Shown one piece after another: positions 1,973 through 49,756 of a DNA stretch of 50,596 nt. Every line of letters starts with the position of its first letter. Positions within the stretch are counted from its first letter, which is position 1. This DNA is from Escherichia phage tunzivis. The notes under the pieces were generated by a model, which was not told the DNA's origin, searched no databases, and saw only the letters and a list, made by a program, of their open reading frames with translations. The translations under genes and the position numbers were made by a program. The DNA is taken from sequence record MN850604.1. One strand, given 5' to 3'.

Positions 1973-2364
1973 TGAAGAATTTTTTACTTACACCAATCGC
2001 AATGGCGGTGATCTTGTCTGGATGTTCAAGCGTTACGCCACTGACCGGATTAATCGGCAGTAAGCCGGAAATCACAGCACAGGCTGGAGCGGAGAACGTG
2101 AAGCAGACAGTTGGCATTACAGCAAAGCAGGACGCCAGCACAAAACAGGAAACCACAATAAAGGAATCTGCGGTTGACAAGGTGGACACGTCCAGCAAGA
2201 AGGATTTCACAACATCAACCATTCAGGCCAATACCATCAAGGCAGACAAAATTCAGGTCGTGCAGGGTAATAACGGCAGATGGTACGATCCAGTAATCAT
2301 ATGCGTGGTTGTGTTTCTTGTGCTGATTTGTCTTTACTGGAGAGAAAAGAAAAAGGAGGCTTAA
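1969..2364 (+). CDS. unimolecular spanin (u-spanin, T1 gp11-like)
   Basis: ATG at 1969 overlaps endolysin stop (ATGA); lipoprotein signal with lipobox LSGC; C-terminal TM segment ([16 protein letters not shown]); position after endolysin. Confidence 0.6.
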
Positions 2365-2381
2365 TGCCTCCTTTATTTTTA
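2354..2381. terminator. bidirectional terminator between convergent lysis and early-left operons
   Basis: AGGAGGC-ttaat-GCCTCCT hairpin flanked by A-run and T-run. Confidence 0.55.
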
Positions 2382-2664: not shown

Positions 2665-2683
2665 GTTTTAACAAAAAATGCTA
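2665..2683 (-). promoter_or_regulatory. conserved motif copy (reverse strand; variant TAGCATTTTTTGTTAAAAC), upstream of 2379..2603
   Basis: 18-nt spacer then TATATT (-10-like); CATCGAAACGAACC leader follows. Confidence 0.55.
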
Positions 2684-2801
2684 TTCCATACGCTTTACTG
2701 TAACCAATAACACACCATCATCATTGCATAAAACGTGTTCAGTGGTGCTAAAAGCTCGCATATCTGAATAAAGTAGCGTAAGTAAAGCATGAATAAAATC
2801 A

Positions 2802-3197
2802 TCATGTGATATTGAATTTACGGCGCAGTGCTTCAAGATCTTGTCTATTAGCTTTTGCCTGGAACAATTCATCATCGCCCATCTCCCCTATTCTAGCTAT
2901 ATCCCTGATCCAGTCGTTGCGCATACCATCCAGGCTATACAATTCGAATCCGAAAGGCCGCTTTGACGATCCTTTGGACCAGTATTTTCCGCAGACTCCA
3001 TCTATATAACCAGCCGTCATCATTCTTGCGCAAAATTCCTTAGATGCAAGGCTGGCGAACATTCGCGGCGTAAGTCCGGCGGCCCGTGCGAGCCGCTCAC
3101 ATTCTCTATGCTGATAGATAAATTTGGCTATGTGCTGCCTGTTAAACCAATCGTATGACTCACACCATTTATACAGATCAAGCAAAAACATAATCAT
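2802..3197 (-). CDS. hypothetical protein
   Basis: 131-aa ORF; start ATG overlaps stop of upstream gene 3194..4774 (ATGA coupling). Confidence 0.45.
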   Translation of the reverse strand: MIMFLLDLYKWCESYDWFNRQHIAKFIYQHRECERLARAAGLTPRMFASLASKEFCARMMTAGYIDGVCGKYWSKGSSKRPFGFELYSLDGMRNDWIRDIARIGEMGDDELFQAKANRQDLEALRRKFNIT

Positions 3198-4774
3198 CCC
3201 AGCAGTATTGGATTGACAAAAATAACACCATTAATCACACAAACATAATTTCTTTCTTCCAGCATTGGCAGTAAGTGCCCTTCTATCCTTTTCATTACGC
3301 CAGCCTGACCAACGAAAGGTTTTACCTTTCTCGCTGATTCGTACAGGGCGCGGATATTCAGAATCCCTTTATTAGCCTTGCCGTGCCTCGTGATCAATTC
3401 AATCAATTTACCCATTTCAGCATCATCACCAGCATAACCAGAAGCATTGGCGGCGCTAATGTATGTTTTGCTCAATTCCTGAAACATGATCAACGCCTCT
3501 TGCATTGTTTCCACGTCGATCTCTTTCGACTTCTGCGGGTATCCGGCAGGATTAAACCAGTTACGGATAACATGCAGGACGGAAGCAAGCCTGATCACCT
3601 GTTTATCCATTTTACCCAGCGCACCGCGTAACATTGTATGAGAATACTTTCCTCCGTCTGCAAGATGCGGTTCCATATCCTGGCGAGCAATGTTGAGCAC
3701 TCGCATAGCTGAACGGCTTATTTTCAGCGATATATTTGATTCGCTCATGATGTTATGCACCAATTGATAATATTGGGCTTTCAATTCAGAATCCACCGCC
3801 TCATAGGTAGAATCACCATTTTCATCAATGAATGAGCGACGGCCTAAGAATGATTCCTCTCGGACCAACAAAAAACGCTCACTAACACCGATGCCTCGCG
3901 ATCCAGCGTCCATGATTCCGCTTATCGTTTCATCCTGGGCTATGACGCTCATACATCCAAGCGCGCGAAAACTCATATTATTGTCAGCATTAGCACGGGC
4001 AATTGATACGTGACCATTATCCCACGCCTTAAGCACTAACTCACTGTTAGTCTTCCTTTCGCTATTTGCATAGGTCAAGCCTAACAGACTGTTAATACTT
4101 GTTGCTTCATCAGATATTACGGCAAAGTTACCTTGCTTGTTGTTGATTTTCGCCAAGCCTTCTGGAGTTGTATCTGAAACAGGAAAAGTTATATCACACA
4201 TTTTTTCCAGCTTTTCCTCCAGATCCTCTTTTTCCTGGTATAGAGATTCCATATCAGCGCCGGATCTTTCGCTTTTCATCTCCTTTGCAAGACCTGCCAG
4301 CTTTGCCTGTATTTTCTTTCTTTCCTTGCGGCGTTGCTCGTTGATCTTCTCAACTTCCGCAATCATCGGAGCAATAGCCATGCTGTTGATCGCAGATTTA
4401 CCAGTTGACGGCGGCTGGCTTGTAACGACGTAAAGCGCAGTCGGCTGATCGGTTCCGTGATAGTCAACCGTAAAGCGTCCAAGCATAGCGGCAGAAATGC
4501 AGCCGATAAAGTGCATGTAAGCCGATGATTCAGGGAATTGAACGGATCGCGCAATGCTGCGTGATAACTTGCCGACAACATCAATATCATTACCAAGAGA
4601 AATAACGGGGTAGCGATCGTGACCGCTATTCACATCCTTTACGTCGCCCCAAAAGCTGGACGACTGGCGATAGCCGTTAGCCTGAATTGATACGCGAACT
4701 GGCGAAAGGTTCTGGCTTTCAGCCATAGCGATTATTTGTTGTGGAGTTAATTTGTTCGTTTCTAATGAAAACAT
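3194..4774 (-). CDS. P-loop NTPase, putative replication-associated helicase-like protein (DUF3987-like)
   Basis: 526 aa; Walker A-like VVTSQPPSTGKSAINS; RBS AAGGAGAAG; motif-type promoter 53 bp upstream; family assignment is from memory. Confidence 0.45.
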   Translation of the reverse strand: MFSLETNKLTPQQIIAMAESQNLSPVRVSIQANGYRQSSSFWGDVKDVNSGHDRYPVISLGNDIDVVGKLSRSIARSVQFPESSAYMHFIGCISAAMLGRFTVDYHGTDQPTALYVVTSQPPSTGKSAINSMAIAPMIAEVEKINEQRRKERKKIQAKLAGLAKEMKSERSGADMESLYQEKEDLEEKLEKMCDITFPVSDTTPEGLAKINNKQGNFAVISDEATSINSLLGLTYANSERKTNSELVLKAWDNGHVSIARANADNNMSFRALGCMSVIAQDETISGIMDAGSRGIGVSERFLLVREESFLGRRSFIDENGDSTYEAVDSELKAQYYQLVHNIMSESNISLKISRSAMRVLNIARQDMEPHLADGGKYSHTMLRGALGKMDKQVIRLASVLHVIRNWFNPAGYPQKSKEIDVETMQEALIMFQELSKTYISAANASGYAGDDAEMGKLIELITRHGKANKGILNIRALYESARKVKPFVGQAGVMKRIEGHLLPMLEERNYVCVINGVIFVNPILLG

Positions 4775-4826
4775 TCGTTAGCTTCTCCTTTGTGGGCCGT
4801 AAATTTTAACGGCCCAATACTACCCC

Positions 4827-4845
4827 GTTTTGTCAAAAAGTGCTA
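4827..4845 (-). promoter_or_regulatory. conserved motif copy (variant TAGCACTTTTTGACAAAAC), upstream of 3194..4774
   Basis: 18-nt spacer then TAAAAT inside GC hairpin GGGCCGTTAAAATTTACGGCCC. Confidence 0.5.
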
Positions 4846-5064
4846 TTTGATCCGCTCTATTGCAACCAGAAGTCGATCAGGCTGGCGGTCGCTGTAGCAT
4901 TCTCCTGTAATCCCATCCTTAAACGTAAAGTAAAGCGCCTTATGATATGAAAAACCAATCAGCCAACCTACCGCCGTTTTTTTGATGGGCCTGACTATAT
5001 CGCCAGGCTTGAAAGTCTTTGTGGTAGAATGCGTTACTTTGTAACGGTTTTCACTGTTTATCAC
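4843..5064 (-). CDS. hypothetical protein
   Basis: 73-aa ORF; GTG start overlapping stop of upstream gene (GTGA). Confidence 0.35.
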   Translation of the reverse strand: MINSENRYKVTHSTTKTFKPGDIVRPIKKTAVGWLIGFSYHKALYFTFKDGITGECYSDRQPDRLLVAIERIK

Positions 5065-5447
5065 AGATATTTGCCCTCAAACAGATAACAGCCGCCAGCA
5101 GAGAATCCGACCTCTTCACGGTACAGGTTCCAGCGGTCGCCGCACTCATCAAAAACATAACCCGCAACGCTTCCAAGCGGTCGCCCTTTCTCGATCTGGT
5201 ATCGCTTGCCCTGCTTAAAGTGCTTTTTGCACGGCATGTTATGATCTACAAACGTGCAAAGAACGGTTTTTGTGTTAATGGCGCGGTAATCATCTCGGTT
5301 TGCTGGAAGCCAGCGGCTACCCTTAACAAGCGTCTTAACCTGGAACTCTTCCACCTCGATCACATCATCACTTCCTGCAATCTTCTGATAAACCGTTTTA
5401 AAACGGCCTTTCATCAATACGTTGGTTTCATTACAGATAACATTCAT
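5061..5447 (-). CDS. hypothetical protein
   Basis: 128-aa ORF; RBS AAGGAGATCT 7 nt upstream of ATG; motif-type promoter upstream. Confidence 0.45.
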   Translation of the reverse strand: MNVICNETNVLMKGRFKTVYQKIAGSDDVIEVEEFQVKTLVKGSRWLPANRDDYRAINTKTVLCTFVDHNMPCKKHFKQGKRYQIEKGRPLGSVAGYVFDECGDRWNLYREEVGFSAGGCYLFEGKYL

Positions 5448-5500: not shown

Positions 5501-5519
5501 CTTTTAACAAAAAGTGCTA
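5501..5519 (-). promoter_or_regulatory. conserved motif copy upstream of 5061..5447
   Basis: reverse complement of TAGCACTTTTTGTTAAAAg; hairpin GCCAGGTG..ACCTGGC; CATAAT 18 nt downstream. Confidence 0.55.
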
Positions 5520-6233
5520 TTTTGAGTTTGACTCAAAGACGGCGCGAGCAAATCCGCGCGGAGTGAGGGAGCGGATCATCTTTGTGCGCGATGACTTGCC
5601 GCCAGTTTTGGCCCAGCCTGGATTATCTTTGTCTTCCTCTTTCGGCAGGATTAAAGCGCGCGGAGGAATAACAAAGCCGTTGCCAGTCCAGAGGCACGTT
5701 TTCTTAAAATAGCGATCACGCGCCGGAATAATATCAGGGAAGTCGGGATGTTTATCATCTTCCGGCAGATAGCCAGCGTAATCGCACGGATGGAACGTAT
5801 AATCAGGCTTACGCCATAACGTTGACAACTTGCCAACCGGATTTTCGATCATGTAAGGAACACCGAAATAATCAGCTATATCAGCCGCGATTCTGCAAGT
5901 GTCGGCGGCCTCATCCTGGAACGATGGATTCTCAAGGCGTTTTTTGGCCCAATGGCGAGATCCGCTATTTGCAAGGTCGGTGCAAGGAGGGAACGCCATA
6001 ATAAAATCAGGATTGCCCCACTCATTATTGATTGCCTTAACATAAAAAGCATCATCAATCCAGACGTTAACGTATTCGATATTCTCATGCTGTATGCGCA
6101 CTGACTGGTAATCACCGTGATCGCCGCCGTCAGCATTAAAGCAAATGCACTTATAGCCATTATCAGCCCAATCTTTAACGGCTTTACCAGATCCATCAAA
6201 TAGGGAGAATATAAAACCTTTATACATCGTCAT
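5517..6233 (-). CDS. compact DNA (cytosine-5)-methyltransferase
   Basis: ORF 5517..6296; start placed at MTMYKG with GAGG RBS; C5-MTase motifs I (FSLFDGSG), IV (FPPCTDL) and VI (ENPVG) in canonical order; unusually short, no long target-recognition region. Confidence 0.6.
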   Translation of the reverse strand: MTMYKGFIFSLFDGSGKAVKDWADNGYKCICFNADGGDHGDYQSVRIQHENIEYVNVWIDDAFYVKAINNEWGNPDFIMAFPPCTDLANSGSRHWAKKRLENPSFQDEAADTCRIAADIADYFGVPYMIENPVGKLSTLWRKPDYTFHPCDYAGYLPEDDKHPDFPDIIPARDRYFKKTCLWTGNGFVIPPRALILPKEEDKDNPGWAKTGGKSSRTKMIRSLTPRGFARAVFESNSK

Positions 6234-6237
6234 TACC

Positions 6238-6462
6238 TCAAAACGGAAAACAGCGCGGACAACCAGGATCGAAATCGCATCCACAATCATTAACAATCAT
6301 AGTTGGATCTGCAAATATTGCGCTTGATTCAAGATCCATATCCATATCACCTAAAGCCTCATCAAGAGTCTTAATTTTATATGCCACTTCAAGCGCCGCC
6401 TCTTTATTTAGTCCGGCATCTTCTGCCATTTGAAGGCGCTCAAAAAATCCGTCTTGACTCAT
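6238..6462 (-). CDS. hypothetical Cys-rich small protein
   Basis: 74 aa; C-terminal CGCDFDPGCPRC cluster; RBS AAGGGGA. Confidence 0.4.
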   Translation of the reverse strand: MSQDGFFERLQMAEDAGLNKEAALEVAYKIKTLDEALGDMDMDLESSAIFADPTMIVNDCGCDFDPGCPRCFPF

Positions 6463-8664: not shown

Positions 8665-8723
8665 TTACTATCTCCTGAGCGGTTCGTTTCGATGTGTGTA
8701 ATGTACCCGATCAGGCGGCCTGA

Positions 8724-8742
8724 GTTTTAACAAAAAGTGCTA
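8724..8742 (-). promoter_or_regulatory. conserved motif copy upstream of 8392..8664
   Basis: exact 19-mer; 18-nt spacer; TACATT; CATCGAAACGAACC leader. Confidence 0.55.
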
Positions 8743-8749
8743 TTTGACG

Positions 8750-9300
8750 GTTATCGCCAGGATTGCGATCGAAATAATCAAAAGTAATCATTCGTAATCA
8801 AATCACGTCAAAATGATGATTGCCTTTGCAAATTTGATGAGAAAAGCAATCACGTTTAATCATTGGTTGCAGGGGAGATAGTGAAACCTTCCCCTCTTGC
8901 CTCACTTTTCCGCTTGGCTGTCAGCGGTTGTTGTCTTTTGTTCACCCCTGTTACCGATTTCAGGCGGCGTGTTTCCGCGCGGTTTTCCGGTGTATCGAAA
9001 ACGGAAAAAACAAAAAAAATCCTTTATAATACATTGAAAATAAAGATTATTTATTTATATATATCTATAATGTTTTCTTTTTGTTCTCACTGTTACAGTG
9101 CTTTTTGTTGGGTATGGTGTGTTTGTGTGTGGGTATATATGGATAGTTGCGCGCGCGGCGGATTGCATATGTATATATACTTTTTCCGGCGGATTGCGTT
9201 AACAGCGTGAACAGAAAAATAACAGCCCTGAAATCAATAACTTGCGCATGATTTTGTAGTTTTTCGATATTGGTAACGTTTTGAATACAACAAAAACATT
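8750..9300. repeat. AT-rich divergent control region with short direct repeats (TAATCA-type), TA/TG-rich tracts and a motif-like AGTGCTTTTTGTT
   Basis: TAATCA/AATCAC repeats 8775..8870; GGTTTTCCGGTGTATCGAAAAC 8981..9002; TTATTTATTTATATATATCTATAAT 9047..9071; GTGTGTTTGTGTGTGGGTATATATGG 9118..9143. Confidence 0.5.
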
Positions 9301-9326
9301 GACACGCACAAAATAGCTTTTATAAT
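9299..9326 (+). promoter_or_regulatory. consensus sigma70 promoter (TTGACA-16 nt-TATAAT), candidate early promoter
   Basis: TTGACA at 9299..9304, TATAAT at 9321..9326; 32 bp upstream of first rightward gene. Confidence 0.65.
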
Positions 9327-9357
9327 GCGCCAACAGTCAACAACTGGAGGAAAGGAA

Positions 9358-9822: not shown

Positions 9823-10091
9823 AAAAGGCATTAATCAGCGTTTTGGCGGCAATGGCATTCCTGACCGGATGCAAAGAAGATGGCGCGCATGTTGGCAATG
9901 TGCAGATGGCTAACCCTGGCGATGACTACAGCGTAAGGGAGCTATTCACCGCTGACGGTTGCACCGTTTACCGATTCTATGACGATCGCACTGTTTACTT
10001 CACCAACTGCAAGGGCACTACTAGCTGGGAAGTGTCGAAAAGCAATGGCAAAGGCACGAAGACAGAACATATGACCGTCGAGACAAAATAG
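9819..10091 (+). CDS. lipoprotein (candidate superinfection-exclusion protein)
   Basis: ORF 9759..10091; ATG at 9819; signal peptide with lipobox LTGC; about 70 mature residues with two further Cys; stop TAG is part of the downstream motif. Confidence 0.5.
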   Translation: MKKALISVLAAMAFLTGCKEDGAHVGNVQMANPGDDYSVRELFTADGCTVYRFYDDRTVYFTNCKGTTSWEVSKSNGKGTKTEHMTVETK

Positions 10092-44984: not shown

Positions 44985-45914
44985 TTATAGCAGTGATTCA
45001 GGCTTGTAGAGTTTTCTTTCTACGCCCTGTTTAAAATTATCGTTAACAGGCATCATTATGTCAAGCCCTCTTTCCTCTGCCGCGATTATCACATCACGAT
45101 CATCTTTCCGGCAGACTACGCGCATTCTTCTTTCTCCTTTATATCTATGCGCAACCATTTCAAGATTTGAAGGAGTAAAACAGGCCCACACCTCTTGACC
45201 AGTTGATAAATGAACATGCTGAGAATCAACCCAATCAAGGCACAAATAGATCGTCTTATCTGTACTACCTGTTTTAACAACAGATCCGCGCGTGTAGTCG
45301 CGAGCTAAAAACCAATCCTTTCCATCCTCATCAATGAAAAGCACGTTACACATTTCATCATCCAGCCCGTCATCATGCACCAGGTGACAAGGTAGCGCGT
45401 GAATGTATCGACCATCCTTGACTCCGCAATCATAATGACAATCTTCCGGCGGATATATCCCCTCATAAACGCTTAAAGGTGTGCGATCGAATTTTAATGT
45501 TTTTTCCATCACTTTTTCGCAACATTCATGACTTGCCTGTTTCCCGAACGAGTAACCAGAAGAACGCGAAGCGCGTTTGTTTGCTCTGATCCTGTAATCT
45601 TGTGGCACTTTTCCGAGGAAGCGGCCCAAAATGTTGATGGCCTCGCTGTAAGGTTCGCCAGTTAATTTCATTAACCAACCGATCCCCGTGTCGTTGCCGC
45701 ATACGTTGCAGATCGCGCCGCCGTCGCCCTCTTCATTTAGCTTATCAGTCCACCTAAAACGATCCTTACCGCCGCAGTGTGGGCAAGGCTGATGCTTTTT
45801 GTTGAAAACATCGCTATGCAGTCCGCAAATGCTTTGTAGTGCTTCACGCCATAACCCCTTCATATATGGCAAAACATCTTCTTTCTGATAGGTCATAAAG
45901 CTTTCAGTATTCAT
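44985..45914 (-). CDS. DNA primase (zinc-ribbon type)
   Basis: ORF 44985..45992; ATG 45914 after GAGG; primase zinc ribbon CPHCGGKDRFRW...CNVCG; adjacent to helicase gene. Confidence 0.6.
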   Translation of the reverse strand: MNTESFMTYQKEDVLPYMKGLWREALQSICGLHSDVFNKKHQPCPHCGGKDRFRWTDKLNEEGDGGAICNVCGNDTGIGWLMKLTGEPYSEAINILGRFLGKVPQDYRIRANKRASRSSGYSFGKQASHECCEKVMEKTLKFDRTPLSVYEGIYPPEDCHYDCGVKDGRYIHALPCHLVHDDGLDDEMCNVLFIDEDGKDWFLARDYTRGSVVKTGSTDKTIYLCLDWVDSQHVHLSTGQEVWACFTPSNLEMVAHRYKGERRMRVVCRKDDRDVIIAAEERGLDIMMPVNDNFKQGVERKLYKPESLL

Positions 45915-45969
45915 GGCAAACCTCAATAAAAAAGCCCAGCAAATATTATCATTTCGCTGAGCCTTATCA

Positions 45970-46446
45970 TTAGCTATTTGTGCTGTTATCACCTTTGTAG
46001 AATCGTCCGCCTGGTTCGTAGTCTGAATTTTTGACTACGCGCAACATCTCGTATTTGTCGCAACGGGTAGTAAGAGGCTTACCGTTAGAATCAAACCGCA
46101 GATCTGGACGACAAAATGATGCGCGGTATCCTTTGCATCCATTATATTTGTAGTCGTTATGCACCTTTTGTGCTCCAGCGGCTGAAATCATACCACGCTT
46201 TCGCCATTGGTTAACGACTTGCTGAGATACGCGTAGACGTCGAGCCATAGCAGGAACACCGCCATAATACTCGATCAGAATATCCAGGCGAGATTTCAGG
46301 CTTGCTTTTACCTCATCTCGCAGGATAAGAAATCCGGTTCGGTGTTTTCGTGGCTTTTTGTCTTTACCTCGTCGCGTTCCGTTGTTACCGTTAATAGTGC
46401 GCTTGTCGATCTCACCCGTAGAAACTGCAATTCGTGCATCTTTCAT
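45970..46446 (-). CDS. HTH DNA-binding protein (candidate transcription regulator)
   Basis: 158 aa; helix-turn-helix-like GGVPAMARRLRVSQQVVNQWRKRG; RBS AGGTGA abuts an inverted copy of the conserved motif. Confidence 0.5.
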   Translation of the reverse strand: MKDARIAVSTGEIDKRTINGNNGTRRGKDKKPRKHRTGFLILRDEVKASLKSRLDILIEYYGGVPAMARRLRVSQQVVNQWRKRGMISAAGAQKVHNDYKYNGCKGYRASFCRPDLRFDSNGKPLTTRCDKYEMLRVVKNSDYEPGGRFYKGDNSTNS

Positions 46447-46533: not shown

Positions 46534-48531
46534 ATGATTCCAAATATCGAAAAACAAATATCAGCGTTAGGCGAGGCAGTAATAAAAAGCATCCAAGAGC
46601 GATTCACGGTTGGCAATATAGTGCCTTATCCTTATCAGTGCGTTGCGTATGCAGAGATCGCAAAGCGCATGAAAAACTATGAGCATCCTTTCTTTGTTAA
46701 GGCTTCTGTATCGGCTGGCAAAACATTGATGTTTGCGATGGTTGCGGCGCAATGCCGCAAAATGGGATTGAAAATGATGGTCCTTGCTCGCCAGGCTGAA
46801 ATTGTTGATCAGGATTCGGAAGAGATCAGCAATCTTGGCGTGCCAAACTCAATCTATTGCGCAGGACTGAAAACAAAAAGCGCATACTTTCCGATCGTAG
46901 TCGGTTCTGAGGGCACTGTAGTAAACGGATTGTTTAAGTCGTTAGGTGATTATGTTCCGCACGTTATCGGTATTGATGAATGTCACCAGGTGGATTGGGA
47001 GGATCTCGCGGACGCGATAGAAAATAATGAATCTTACCAGCAGATGACCACTAAGAAGGATTTGCCTGTACTGATTGGAGAAGAACAGCAATTTGATTCC
47101 AATGGCGATCCAATGTTCGGAACAGGGCGCACACAGTACACCGTAATAATCATGGAAATGATGCGTAGGTGTCGCGAGGCATACGGGCACGAATTGCGAA
47201 TATTCGGCATGACTGGATCTGAGTTTCGCGGCGTGGTTCCAATACTGGTTGAAGATAAGAACAAAAAGGGATTCTGGCGTGAGCAGGTGACTAACATAGA
47301 CACAAACTACTTAATCAAATTCGGTTCGGTAGTGCCAACAAACTTCGGCGACGTAGGCGACCTGGGTTATGACCTTTCAGAGTTCGAAGCCAGTAGCGAG
47401 GATGGCGTTTCAGACTTTGACGCTAAAACATTGCGCAAGATGGAAGAAAAGATCCATCAAGACGCAACAATGACACAGAAAATCATGGCTAAAGTCCATG
47501 AGATATGCAAAGACAGGAACGGAGTTTTAGTTACATGCGCAGGGGAAAGGCACTGCAAGGAGGCTGCCGCCGCACTGCCGCCAGGCGTTGAATACAGGAT
47601 CATAACTGGCAAGACTGGAGATAATCAGCGTAAAGAGTGGCTGAGGGAGGCATACGAGGGAAAAGTAAAATACATCTTCCAGGTACAGGCGCTTACCACT
47701 GGCGTTAACGTTCCGTTTTGGGATACTTCTGTAATACTGAGAAAGATAGGATCTCTAACATTGCTTATCCAGCTTTTGGGGCGCGGCATGCGACTGCTTA
47801 AGCAATGGCACATTGAGCAGGGATTCAAGAAAAAAGATCATCTTGTATTGGATTTTGCAGGTACTATGGATGAGTTAGGTGATTTGTATTTCGATCCAAT
47901 CCTTGAGCAAGCGCAATTCCAAAAGAGATTTACAAACGGGAAAGAGCCTAAGACTTGTCCGATATGTGGAACGCTAAACAGCTTTTACGCTCGCCGATGT
48001 ATGCACGTAGACGATAACGGGAAGCGATGTGAGCATTTTTGGACTTACAGAATTTGCGAGGACCAGGTAGATCCGAGAACGAAAAAGATAATCAAGCGCG
48101 GTTGTGGAACAAAAAACGACGTAGTGGCGAGAGTATGCCGTTGTTGCGATATTTCTCTTGTCGATCCTAACGAGAAGTTAAGCGGTAAGCACTACACCAA
48201 AAACGATTGGTGCAACGTTAAATCTTTCCGCGTTGATATGACGAAAAACCAGAAAGGAATTATTTTTTGCTATGAGCTTGAGGCCAACGGCGACACGTTC
48301 AAGGCATACGAAAGATTTTTCCCTGAGTCAGAAAGCAACATTTGCCGGACGATATGGAGAAAAATAGCATTGCAGCACATACCGGATCGCAAGATTGCTG
48401 GTATGGTGGCGAGCTATAGAAATGCTCGTAAAATAATGTCATACGCTCATCACATCATGCCGCCTGTACGCGTAACGCATCGCAAAAACGGCAAAGGTGA
48501 GGATAACATTGCAAAACGGGAGTTTGTTTAA
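46534..48531 (+). CDS. superfamily-2 DNA helicase with C-terminal zinc ribbons
   Basis: 665 aa; Walker A SVSAGKT, DExH box GIDECHQ; C-terminal CPICG...CRCC clusters; motif-type promoter upstream. Confidence 0.75.
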   Translation: MIPNIEKQISALGEAVIKSIQERFTVGNIVPYPYQCVAYAEIAKRMKNYEHPFFVKASVSAGKTLMFAMVAAQCRKMGLKMMVLARQAEIVDQDSEEISNLGVPNSIYCAGLKTKSAYFPIVVGSEGTVVNGLFKSLGDYVPHVIGIDECHQVDWEDLADAIENNESYQQMTTKKDLPVLIGEEQQFDSNGDPMFGTGRTQYTVIIMEMMRRCREAYGHELRIFGMTGSEFRGVVPILVEDKNKKGFWREQVTNIDTNYLIKFGSVVPTNFGDVGDLGYDLSEFEASSEDGVSDFDAKTLRKMEEKIHQDATMTQKIMAKVHEICKDRNGVLVTCAGERHCKEAAAALPPGVEYRIITGKTGDNQRKEWLREAYEGKVKYIFQVQALTTGVNVPFWDTSVILRKIGSLTLLIQLLGRGMRLLKQWHIEQGFKKKDHLVLDFAGTMDELGDLYFDPILEQAQFQKRFTNGKEPKTCPICGTLNSFYARRCMHVDDNGKRCEHFWTYRICEDQVDPRTKKIIKRGCGTKNDVVARVCRCCDISLVDPNEKLSGKHYTKNDWCNVKSFRVDMTKNQKGIIFCYELEANGDTFKAYERFFPESESNICRTIWRKIALQHIPDRKIAGMVASYRNARKIMSYAHHIMPPVRVTHRKNGKGEDNIAKREFV

Positions 48532-48966: not shown

Positions 48967-49024
48967 TGGCGCGATGGATTGCGCCATAATTCAATAACAC
49001 GAGATGGCTTTTAATAGCGGAGAA

Positions 49025-49756
49025 ATGAAAATGGCTAAAGATATTTTAGATAAAGACACCCATGACGCATTTGTTAGCTTTGAGCAGTTGGAGAGAGAAA
49101 CGTTTATAGGAAATGCTCTTGCAACTGGAGGCTATTACCAGGCAGTAAAGCCAAATCAATATTATAAGGTAAGCGGCAACCGATACGCTGGAAGCACTAC
49201 GCCGGACGTTGTGCGCGATATGTGGAGCACACCTCAAGAGATCGTTGAGTGGATGGAATCAGAATTTGGCGAATACGATCTCGACGCGGCAGCAAGCCAG
49301 GAAAACGCAGTTTGCGAGAAGTTCTATAGCAAGGAAACAAACTGCTTAAAGCGTTGGTGGGGTAGCAACAAGCACGTATGGCTTAACCCGCCGTACAGCA
49401 ACCCAACTCCATTTATCAAGAAAGCAATTGAGCAAATGGAGCACAACAACCAAATTGATGTTTTGCTGCCTGCCGACAATTCCACGGCCTGGTTTTATGA
49501 GGCGCAGAAAAACGCGGCTGAAATCATCTGGATCACTGGAGAAGTTTACGAAGAGGGGGGAGTGGAATATTCCCGCACCGGAAGAATCGCCTTTGTGTCT
49601 GGATTGACTGGCGAGCCTGTACAGGGCAACAATAAGGGGAGCGTGATTTTTGTCATGCGTAAACTTAAAGAAGGCGAAGAGCAGAAAACGCGATACGTTA
49701 AGATCAGCGATATTTGCCCTTCTGTAACCGAACGCCGCGCGCGCAAACGGAGCTAA
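49025..49756 (+). CDS. dam: DNA N6-adenine methyltransferase (phage Dam-type)
   Basis: ORF 49004..49756; start placed at ATG 49025 after GGAG; catalytic NPPY motif (WLNPPYSN). Confidence 0.7.
   Translation: MKMAKDILDKDTHDAFVSFEQLERETFIGNALATGGYYQAVKPNQYYKVSGNRYAGSTTPDVVRDMWSTPQEIVEWMESEFGEYDLDAAASQENAVCEKFYSKETNCLKRWWGSNKHVWLNPPYSNPTPFIKKAIEQMEHNNQIDVLLPADNSTAWFYEAQKNAAEIIWITGEVYEEGGVEYSRTGRIAFVSGLTGEPVQGNNKGSVIFVMRKLKEGEEQKTRYVKISDICPSVTERRARKRS

What the first reader, a model, noticed from the sequence alone, without database searches (positions are those of the whole stretch)
2802..4774. Large P-loop protein plus coupled partner in the leftward early operon: possible second replication-initiation or anti-defence module
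The 526-aa product of 3194..4774 carries a Walker A motif (SQPPSTGKS) in its central region and has the size and organisation of DUF3987-type primase-associated helicase-like proteins; this family assignment is from memory and unverified. It is translationally coupled (ATGA) to a 131-aa protein (2802..3197) and has its own motif-type promoter. The genome already encodes a primase (44985..45914) and an SF2 helicase (46534..48531), so this pair is either the origin-recognition/initiator component or has a non-replicative role.
Basis: inference. Interest (0 to 1): 0.5.

Follow-up and report, generated by a model that had tools for sequence, protein, structure and literature searches.

The report
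MCM-like phage helicase with winged-helix partner
The two genes are real, but they are the already-annotated DUF3987 (MCM-like) helicase of T1-like phages and its small winged-helix neighbour, most likely the phage's own replication-fork helicase module rather than an anti-defence system.

The parts
4828..4848 (-). Direct-repeat promoter element AAATAGCACTTTTTGACAAAA. The stop codon TAG of the upstream gene 4843..5064 lies inside it.
   Evidence: One of 15 strand-consistent copies in the window. It matches the TLS element aaATAGCACnnnTTGnTAAAA (PMC11447400).
4817..4822 (-). TAGTAT, a -10-like hexamer whose T, A and final T are invariant in the 17 aligned orthologous regions. It lies 17 nt after the ATAGCAC block.
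   Evidence: Alignment A4, invariant columns T27, A28, T32.
4793..4816 (-). Hairpin TGGGCCGT-TAAAATTT-ACGGCCCA, with a second -10-like hexamer (TAAAAT) in the loop.
   Evidence: Inverted repeat I9. Fold -9.1 kcal/mol, z -3.45. Orthologous regions keep a hairpin with unrelated stems, z -2.5 to -6.75.
4785..4790 (-). Shine-Dalgarno sequence AAGGAG, 10 nt before the ATG at 4774.
   Evidence: Read directly from the sequence. Conserved in A4.
3194..4774 (-). 526-aa DUF3987 / MCM-like AAA+ (SF6) helicase. The model shows an N-terminal helical domain (aa 1-97), an AAA+ core (about 98-345) with a roughly 65-residue helical hairpin after Walker A, a lid (about 346-420) and a C-terminal winged helix (about 421-526).
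4394..4417 (-). Walker A motif QPPSTGKS (aa 120-127). Q120, P121, P122, S123, G125, K126 and S127 are invariant in 23 homologues.
   Evidence: Alignment A1; sequence.
4106..4126 (-). Walker B strand FAVISDE (aa 217-223). E223 is invariant. D222 is Ala in 5 of 23 homologues.
   Evidence: Alignment A1; strand E217-221 in the model.
3875..3883 (-). S298-E299-R300 of the 'SERF' motif, the putative arginine finger (compare MCM SRFD). It sits just before strand 301-305.
   Evidence: E299 and R300 invariant, S298 nearly invariant. Position in the model. Equivalence to the MCM motif is inference.
2802..3197 (-). 131-aa winged-helix protein (alternative start at 3191 gives 129 aa), carrying the invariant motif D108-x-x-L111-F112. 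It is mis-named 'YdbL' in many records.
2681..2875 (-). 64-aa ORF overlapping the 3' end of the partner gene by 74 nt. Function unknown. Probably in the same transcription unit.
   Evidence: phrog_9539 E 7e-26. Not annotated in RefSeq for phage tonn.
2379..2654 (-). Last small ORF of the unit (91 aa as listed; 75 aa in RefSeq). Function unknown.
   Evidence: phrog_27210 E 2.5e-34; annotation.
2352..2374 (.). Bidirectional terminator-like hairpin AAAGGAGGC-TTAAT-GCCTCCTTT, between the leftward unit and the convergent lysis cassette.
   Evidence: Terminator scan, both strands; inverted repeat I2.

Best explanation
The 526-aa protein is the DUF3987-family, MCM-like AAA+ (superfamily 6) helicase of a T1-like phage. 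Most likely it forms a ring and hydrolyses ATP at subunit interfaces, using Walker A K126, Walker B E223 and a trans arginine R300. In this reading it unwinds the phage replication fork. It would work with the separately encoded T7-gp4-type primase and with the host's DNA polymerase III, because these phages encode no polymerase. The 131-aa protein made from the adjoining, tightly juxtaposed gene is a small basic winged-helix protein found only in this phage family. My preferred reading is that it is a DNA-binding cofactor of the helicase. It would target or load the helicase on DNA, perhaps docking through its invariant acidic-hydrophobic D-x-x-L-F motif. The family membership, fold, conserved catalytic motifs, gene order and phylogenetic distribution are shown here. 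The fork-helicase role, ring assembly, polarity, any contact between the two proteins and any DNA binding are inferred.
For: Family and fold:
- Pfam DUF3987 scores 152.9 bits against a cut-off of 27.
- PHROG 2373 is 'DNA helicase'.
- The AF2 model has pLDDT 86.5 and pTM 0.84.

Motifs: Walker A, the Walker B Glu, SERF, and R383/K388 in the lid are invariant in 23 homologues down to 36% identity.

Literature:
- DUF3987 is described as SF6 and MCM-related, with a C-terminal winged helix, and proposed as a phage replicative helicase (PMC4889955).
- A PriCT-DUF3987 protein is a Walker A/B-dependent 5'-3' helicase that binds its primase-polymerase (PMC11724360).
- TLS gp71 is annotated 'DUF3987, HHpred similarity to 6RAW'.

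Distribution: the protein is in 925 phage records, 911 of them full length. The primase is full length in 1,046.

Context in distant relatives:
- KlebP_265: helicase, small ORF, primase, SF2 helicase, VRR-NUC.
- phiP4-7: helicase ... dam, dUTPase, primase, SF2 helicase.
- A 78-kb contig: DUF3987, SF2 helicase, DUF3799 nuclease, AAA_24, SSB.

No alternative: the SECphi27 annotation lists no polymerase and no other helicase apart from the SF2 one. The TLS paper states that T1 and TLS have no polymerase gene. The primase has only a Zn-ribbon Pfam hit and no helicase domain.

Partner:
- The model shows a winged helix and the protein has pI 8.9.
- Arg residues are invariant in the putative recognition helix and after the wing: R45, R58, R80.
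- It lies directly downstream in 82 of 84 loci, with a junction of -4 to +4 nt in 56 of 59.
Against: - No experiment on this gene in any T1-like phage was found. The TLS paper names the primase and the SF2 helicase, not gp71, as the likely replication proteins.
- In the window the gene is not next to the primase. It is about 40 kb away, or about 10 kb if the map is treated as circular.
- HMMER finds no MCM by sequence, so residue-level equivalences rest on a predicted model.
- The MCM N-terminal OB/Zn domain is absent, and a helix-2 insert is not evident in the model.
- The Walker B Asp is Ala in 5 of 23 homologues.
- For the partner, adjacency inside one syntenic phage family is weak evidence of a physical partnership.
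- Distant phages that have the helicase lack any detectable partner homologue, so the helicase does not universally need it.
- No multimer prediction could be run.
- The only apparent helicase-partner fusion (Vibrio phage Vc1) is a sequence artefact.
Confidence: 0.62

Rival explanations
1. The helicase is itself the initiator. Like SaPI Rep, P4 alpha or papillomavirus E1, it would recognise the origin through its own N-terminal helical domain or C-terminal winged helix, melt it and self-load. The 131-aa protein would then be unrelated to replication. It would be a transcription regulator that binds the repeated ATAGCAC...TAAAA promoter element found upstream of many genes, including the helicase gene.
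For: - Distant relatives have the helicase without the partner.
- The repeat element is present in nearly all loci that carry the partner. It is absent from the three distant loci that lack it: L003, L004 and L085.
- The function of the repeat is unresolved, and an 'enhancer-binding' role has been proposed (PMC11447400).
- The partner fold is that of MarR, PadR and ArsR-type regulators.
Against: - The co-occurrence of element and partner reflects a single lineage split, so it is phylogenetically confounded. Two loci that carry the partner lack an exact match to the element (L013, L051).
- No iterons or AT-rich origin-like tract lie next to the pair.
- The phage has another HTH regulator next to the primase.
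- Winged helices are equally common as protein-protein modules.
Confidence: 0.22
2. The pair is not part of fork replication. The MCM-like ATPase would work in recombination-dependent replication, repair or DNA processing, as MCM8/9, ComM or RavA-like AAA+ proteins do. The phage would use host DnaB, or its own SF2 helicase, at the fork.
For: - The phage has a rich recombination set: ERF, exonuclease VIII, SSB, SF2 helicase and VRR-NUC.
- The TLS authors assign replication to the primase plus the SF2 helicase.
Against: - SF2 helicases paired with VRR-NUC are typical branch-processing or repair modules (established knowledge).
- DUF3987 replaces DnaB, RepA or MCM domains in primase-helicase fusions of mobile elements (PMC5862659; PMC4889955).
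- A DUF3987 protein unwinds forked DNA and binds its primase-polymerase.
- The best structural matches are replicative MCM2-7 and archaeal MCM, not MCM8/9.
Confidence: 0.12
3. The pair is an anti-defence or host-takeover module.
For: - It lies in a cluster of small early-type genes with two DNA methyltransferases nearby.
- A neighbouring 128-aa gene is probably the trigger of Mokosh type I.
Against: - The pair is conserved at core-gene scale across about 900 phage records, rather than being patchy.
- The ATPase motifs are intact and invariant.
- There are no PADLOC hits, and no literature links this gene to escape from any defence system.
- In distant relatives the gene moves together with replication genes.
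Confidence: 0.04

Closest known systems
TLS gp71 / gp70 and the T1 orthologues (T1-like phage annotation, PMC11447400)
   Same: These are direct orthologues. TLS gp71 is 526 aa and annotated 'putative ATPase, DUF3987, HHpred similarity to 6RAW'. TLS gp70 is 130 aa and annotated 'HTH domain-containing protein'. Gene order and position after the lysis cassette are the same. T1 has the same pair, with 58% and 52% identity.
   Different: Nothing material differs. The window's copy has a TTGACA variant of the upstream repeat, and its ATGA overlap is specific to its clade.
AgaPH, the PriCT-DUF3987 helicase of a Seonamhaeicola mobile element (PMC11724360)
   Same: It belongs to the same Pfam family. 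It has conserved Walker A and B motifs and a small C-terminal domain, and it is associated with a primase. It is the only member found here with demonstrated ATP-dependent 5'-3' unwinding.
   Different: AgaPH has an N-terminal PriCT domain and pairs with an AEP primase-polymerase encoded next to it. The phage protein has an unrelated ~97-residue helical N-terminus (no PriCT Pfam hit). It pairs, if at all, with a distant DnaG/T7-gp4-type primase.
Archaeal and eukaryotic MCM helicases (SF6 AAA+)
   Different: There is no MCM Pfam hit and no HMMER-detectable sequence similarity. The N-terminal OB-fold/Zn domain is missing and no helix-2 insert is evident. The phage protein has an extra ~65-residue helical hairpin after Walker A. 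MCM moves 3'-5', whereas the one tested DUF3987 protein moves 5'-3'.
Helicases of staphylococcal mobile elements: SCCmec Cch (5dgk) and the SaPI5 primase-helicase (7ola)
   Different: The structural similarity is much weaker than to MCM, and they belong to different families. From my own knowledge, not tested here, SaPI Rep proteins recognise iterons next to their gene. No such iterons are seen here.
Phage N4 dns protein (DUF3987 fused to an AEP domain; PMC4889955)
   Same: It is a DUF3987 helicase domain in a lytic coliphage and is reported as essential for replication.
   Different: In N4 the primase domain is fused C-terminally. Here the primase is a separate gene of a different (DnaG/T7-type) class. 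No comparison was run.

Membership tests
DUF3987 (Pfam PF13148) | Match to the family HMM above the gathering score over most of the model | tested here: met
   152.9 bits against a cut-off of 27, E 1.7e-44, residues 81-430 on profile positions 3-350 of 364.
DUF3987 (Pfam PF13148) | Conserved Walker A (GxxxxGK[ST]) and Walker B (DExx-like) motifs | tested here: met
   QPPSTGKS is invariant. In hhhhS(D/A)E the Glu is invariant, and the Asp is replaced by Ala in 5 of 23 homologues.
DUF3987 (Pfam PF13148) | [quoted passage not shown] 2016) | tested here: met
DUF3987 (Pfam PF13148) | Fusion to, or adjacency with, a primase gene | tested here: inconclusive
   Not adjacent in the window: the primase is at 44985..45992. 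The genes are within about 0.2-1.4 kb in KlebP_265 and phiP4-7.
DUF3987 (Pfam PF13148) | ATP-dependent DNA unwinding | not testable with these tools
   Shown only for AgaPH (PMC11724360).
MCM family proper (Pfam PF00493; SF6 AAA+) | Sequence match to the MCM profile | tested here: not met
   No MCM hit in Pfam at E up to 0.1. No MCM chain found by phmmer or profile search of PDB sequences. Published HHsearch links the family to MCM only at the profile-profile level.
MCM family proper (Pfam PF00493; SF6 AAA+) | AAA+ core superimposable on MCM | tested here: met
MCM family proper (Pfam PF00493; SF6 AAA+) | N-terminal OB-fold / zinc-binding domain | tested here: not met
   Residues 1-97 are modelled as short helices only. 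The aligned part of the MCM chains is the AAA+ domain.
MCM family proper (Pfam PF00493; SF6 AAA+) | Pre-sensor-1 beta-hairpin and helix-2 insert | tested here: inconclusive
   A hairpin (strands 255-258 and 267-270, with invariant R260) precedes the sensor-1 strand, but pLDDT there is only 57-64. No insert is evident in helix 204-214.
Winged helix-turn-helix proteins (the 131-aa partner) | Three-helix bundle followed by a beta-hairpin wing | tested here: met
Winged helix-turn-helix proteins (the 131-aa partner) | Sequence-specific DNA binding | not testable with these tools
   Only indirect support: pI 8.9 and invariant R45, R58 and R80.
Known helicase loaders (DnaC/DnaI, lambda P, T4 gp59, Cdc6/Cdt1) | Homology to a described loader family | tested here: not met
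   No Pfam, NCBIfam or PDB sequence hit for the partner. The exhaustive profile search finds only its own family. A loader-like role therefore remains a functional analogy only.
Known anti-phage defence system components | Match to a PADLOC model | tested here: not met
   No hit for either protein or for three neighbours at E up to 0.1. No anti-defence library was available.

The most novel reading that the evidence does not exclude
T1-like phages would run a hybrid replisome. An MCM-like (SF6) ring helicase would work with a T7-type primase and the host's Pol III holoenzyme. The lineage-specific 131-aa winged-helix protein would be a new kind of loader or origin adaptor for that helicase. This would be a bacterial-virus analogue of the winged-helix factors that load MCM, docking through its invariant D-x-x-L-F motif. 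The helicase gene would also be driven from a promoter whose -10 element is presented in a structurally conserved hairpin.
Probability: 0.2. Interest if true: 0.55.

Novelty: already known. Interest (0 to 1): 0.28.

Why it matters
T1-like phages are abundant. They are widely used in phage-defence studies (SECphi27, the BASEL Bas01-13 phages) and in therapy collections, yet how they replicate is essentially unstudied. Recognising that their only candidate ring helicase is an MCM-like DUF3987 protein corrects the common assumption that the SF2 helicase is the replicative one. It also frames a testable question: how does an MCM-like helicase couple to a bacterial Pol III replisome? This adds little as a discovery, because the family assignment, the MCM similarity and the HTH nature of the partner are already in public annotation.

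Tried and rejected
- Sequence searches of both proteins, and of the helicase profile, against PDB sequences gave only chance hits.
- NCBIfam and PADLOC gave nothing.
- The small ORFs downstream of the helicase in KlebP_265 and phiP4-7 are not remote partner homologues by BLASTP or hhalign.
- The partner is not a duplicate of the helicase's own C-terminal winged helix or N-terminal domain: hhalign probability below 1%.
- The apparent helicase-partner fusion in Vibrio phage Vc1 was rejected. That protein has an internal 80-residue duplication and a read-through into a decaying frame, so it is an assembly or annotation artefact.
- No origin was found next to the pair. There are no iterons, and GC skew simply follows gene orientation.
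- Defence-escape literature gave no link to this gene.
- Classical T1 genetics and host dna-gene requirements could not be retrieved.
- Searching for the motif string ATAGCAC alone returned thousands of irrelevant primer matches.
- AFDB50 was unavailable. The BFVD search returned only orthologues.
- Column-wise covariation counting on the MAFFT alignment A4 was abandoned because the stem register shifts between rows. Per-sequence folding against shuffles was used instead.
- Rfam and tRNA scans of the window were negative.
Full report
**Observation.** The window is a T1-like siphovirus of the Drexlerviridae (Tempevirinae, Warwickvirus). The tested segment 2300..5500 is 99.9% identical to phage tonn and 99% identical to SECphi27.

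- Both ORFs exist as described: 3194..4774(-) gives 526 aa and 2802..3197(-) gives 131 aa.
- The Walker A string SQPPSTGKS is at residues 119-127. That is the N-terminal quarter of the protein, not the centre.
- The ATGA stop/start overlap is present. It is clade-specific. Across 59 measurable loci the junction is -4 to +4 nt in 56.
- Most homologues begin at MFLLDL, which is Met3 of the window ORF. Tight juxtaposition is therefore conserved, but which start codon is used is uncertain.
- The 'motif-type promoter' is the element AAATAGCACTTTTTGACAAAA at 4848..4828(-). It is one of 15 copies in the window, each oriented with the local genes.
- The generic sigma-70 scan misses it because the TTGnnA block lies about 22 nt from the -10-like hexamer.

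**What the large protein is.**

- Pfam places it in DUF3987 (E 1.7e-44, 152.9 bits against a cut-off of 27). PHROGs places it in family 2373, 'DNA helicase'.
- In an alignment of 23 homologues down to 36% identity, these are invariant: QPPSxGKS, the Walker B glutamate (hhhhS[D/A]E), IAxDE, E299-R300 of a 'SERF' motif, and R383/G384/G387/K388/D390.
- An AlphaFold model built from that alignment is confident (pLDDT 86.5, pTM 0.84).
- HMMER cannot see MCM by sequence. Equating R300 with the MCM SRFD arginine finger, and the low-confidence hairpin 255-270 (invariant R260) with the pre-sensor-1 hairpin, is therefore inference.
- The protein lacks the MCM N-terminal OB/Zn domain. It carries a ~65-residue helical hairpin after Walker A that the Pfam match spans without a break, and it ends in a winged helix.
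- All of this matches the literature. DUF3987 is described as an SF6, MCM-related family with a C-terminal winged helix, proposed to supply replicative helicases to phages (PMC4889955). It substitutes for DnaB, RepA or MCM domains in primase fusions of mobile elements (PMC5862659). One member, AgaPH, is a Walker A/B-dependent 5'-3' helicase that binds its primase-polymerase (PMC11724360).
- The orthologue TLS gp71 is already annotated 'putative ATPase, DUF3987, HHpred similarity to 6RAW'.

**Why replication, and why not a 'second' module.**

- The protein is found in 925 phage records, 911 of them at full length. The primase is full length in 1,046. That is the behaviour of a core gene, not of a patchy accessory gene.
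- In distant relatives the gene sits inside the replication/recombination block.
  - KlebP_265 (36% identity): beside the primase, the SF2 helicase and VRR-NUC.
  - Plesiomonas phiP4-7 (33% identity): beside dam, dUTPase, primase and the SF2 helicase.
  - A 78-kb contig: immediately before the SF2 helicase, a DUF3799 nuclease, AAA_24 and SSB.
- The window's primase gives only a T7-gp4-type zinc-ribbon Pfam hit and no helicase domain. The SF2 helicase (ResIII + Helicase_C) is followed by a VRR-NUC nuclease, and an ERF recombinase is present.
- No polymerase is annotated in SECphi27, and none is found in T1 or TLS.
- The DUF3987 protein is thus the only candidate ring helicase. The most economical model is a fork helicase that cooperates with the stand-alone primase and host Pol III, while SF2 plus VRR-NUC handles branched DNA.
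- This is inference. I found no experiment on the gene in any T1-like phage, and the TLS paper credits the primase and the SF2 helicase instead.

**The small partner.**

- It has no Pfam, NCBIfam, PADLOC or PDB sequence match. The 'YdbL' label in many records is not supported by any search here and appears to have been carried over from another phage record.
- It is basic (pI 8.9). It keeps invariant arginines in the putative recognition helix and after the wing, and an invariant D108-x-x-L111-F112 motif that ends the conserved part of the protein.
- An exhaustive profile search of 1.84 billion representative proteins finds only 20 clusters, all with E of 1e-10 or better. The family is small and lineage-restricted.
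- It lies directly downstream of the helicase in 82 of 84 loci and occurs in 834 phage records.
- It is undetectable in the distant phages that still carry the helicase.
- TLS gp70 is annotated 'HTH domain-containing protein'.
- Adjacency within one syntenic family is weak evidence for a complex, so I hold the cofactor reading (loader or DNA-targeting adaptor) at only about one in three.
- The main rival is a regulator that binds the repeated promoter element. The element and the partner co-occur, and both are missing from the three distant loci, but this amounts to a single phylogenetic split.

**Anti-defence.** Nothing supports it.

- The Mokosh type I trigger reported for SECphi27 is 'a protein of unknown function (128 aa)'.
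- The only 128-aa CDS in the SECphi27 RefSeq annotation is gp13. Its orthologue is window ORF 5061..5447, two genes upstream of the helicase. It is a neighbour, not a member of the pair.

**The promoter region.**

- The repeat is the known TLS element aaATAGCACnnnTTGnTAAAA, whose function is unresolved.
- Two features appear here that the TLS paper does not mention.
- First, -10-like hexamers lie at fixed offsets. An invariant TAnnAT lies 17 nt after the ATAGCAC block, and a second TAnnnT lies 14 nt further on.
- Second, next to or around the second hexamer there is an inverted repeat whose sequence differs in every copy.
  - In the window's 15 copies the mean perfect stem is 5.33 bp. Shuffles give 3.80 +/- 0.23, and none of 1,000 reaches the observed value.
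  - Upstream of the helicase gene the hairpin is TGGGCCGT-TAAAATTT-ACGGCCCA (4816..4793).
  - In 16 orthologous regions, from T1 to Webervirus, a hairpin persists with unrelated stems. Each folds better than its shuffles, with z from -2.5 to -6.75.
- A transcript starting about 7 nt after either hexamer would not contain both arms. The pairing therefore acts either at the DNA level or on read-through RNA. I could not resolve which.
- The older T1 and Rtp genome papers could not be searched, so I make no novelty claim for this side observation.

**Verdict.** The family assignment is right and the replication reading is favoured. The anti-defence reading is unsupported.

The genes and their annotations (DNA helicase/DUF3987/MCM-like; HTH protein) are already public for orthologues that are nearly identical. 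The finding is therefore already known at the annotation level, and untested experimentally. Interest is low to moderate.

Noticed in passing
window, 15 copies: '-' strand at 4848, 5522, 7440, 8745, 24430, 28182, 38958; '+' strand at 10086, 10549, 11766, 12933, 15569, 44894, 48945, 50017: The repeated element AAATAGCACTTTTTGTTAAAA is known from phage TLS, with function unresolved. In the window it is followed at fixed offsets by -10-like hexamers and by an inverted repeat whose sequence differs in each copy. The mean stem is 5.33 bp, against 3.80 +/- 0.23 in shuffles. Upstream of the helicase gene the hairpin survives with unrelated stems in 16 orthologous regions (z -2.5 to -6.75), usually with a TAnnnT hexamer in the loop. 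So the structure is conserved and the sequence is not. Whether it acts at the DNA level or the RNA level is unexplained.
   Followed up: partly
window 5061..5447 (-): This 128-aa ORF (phrog_2684) is the orthologue of SECphi27 gp13. That is the only 128-aa CDS in the SECphi27 RefSeq record, so it is very probably the 'protein of unknown function (128aa)' reported to trigger the Mokosh type I defence system. It lies two genes upstream of the helicase and has its own copy of the repeat element at 5522.
   Followed up: partly
window 8665..9356, especially 9045..9180: This is a ~690-bp divergent intergenic region between the leftward and rightward gene blocks. It has TATATATA-rich tracts and several imperfect repeats, and the cumulative GC skew reaches its minimum near 9 kb. 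It is a possible origin or regulatory hub, but the skew is confounded by gene orientation.
   Followed up: partly
window 2681..2875 (-): A 64-aa ORF overlaps the 3' end of the partner gene by 74 nt in another frame. It matches a PHROG family (phrog_9539, E 7e-26) but is not annotated in the RefSeq record of phage tonn. It may be a real overlapping gene.
   Followed up: no
helicase residue D222 (window 4109..4111); alignment A1: The Walker B aspartate is replaced by alanine (ISAEA) in 5 of 23 homologues, while the following glutamate and the preceding serine are invariant. This is unusual for an active AAA+ ATPase.
   Followed up: no
window 2802..3197 (-), and public records: The product name 'YdbL' attached to the 131-aa protein in many phage records is not supported by any search run here. 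It seems to have spread from a Salmonella phage SP126 annotation.
   Followed up: partly
P0112 (Vibrio phage Vc1 'Helicase', 345 aa) and related Vc1 entries: This public protein contains an internal 80-residue duplication of the helicase lid region. It reads through the stop codon into a partner frame that then decays, so the record is low quality. It could be mistaken for a natural helicase-partner fusion.
   Followed up: yes
loci L044, L046, L057, L075 (gaps of 87-532 nt between helicase and partner); T1 locus L002 2213..2752: In a few relatives extra DNA separates the helicase and partner genes. In T1 a putative endonuclease gene abuts the helicase start. These are probably homing-endonuclease insertions around this conserved gene pair.
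   Followed up: no
window 5517..6296 (-) and 49004..49756 (+): The phage carries two DNA methyltransferases: phrog_757 (annotated as a cytosine methylase in TLS) and a Dam-family adenine methylase. The first lies in the same leftward block as the helicase.
   Followed up: no
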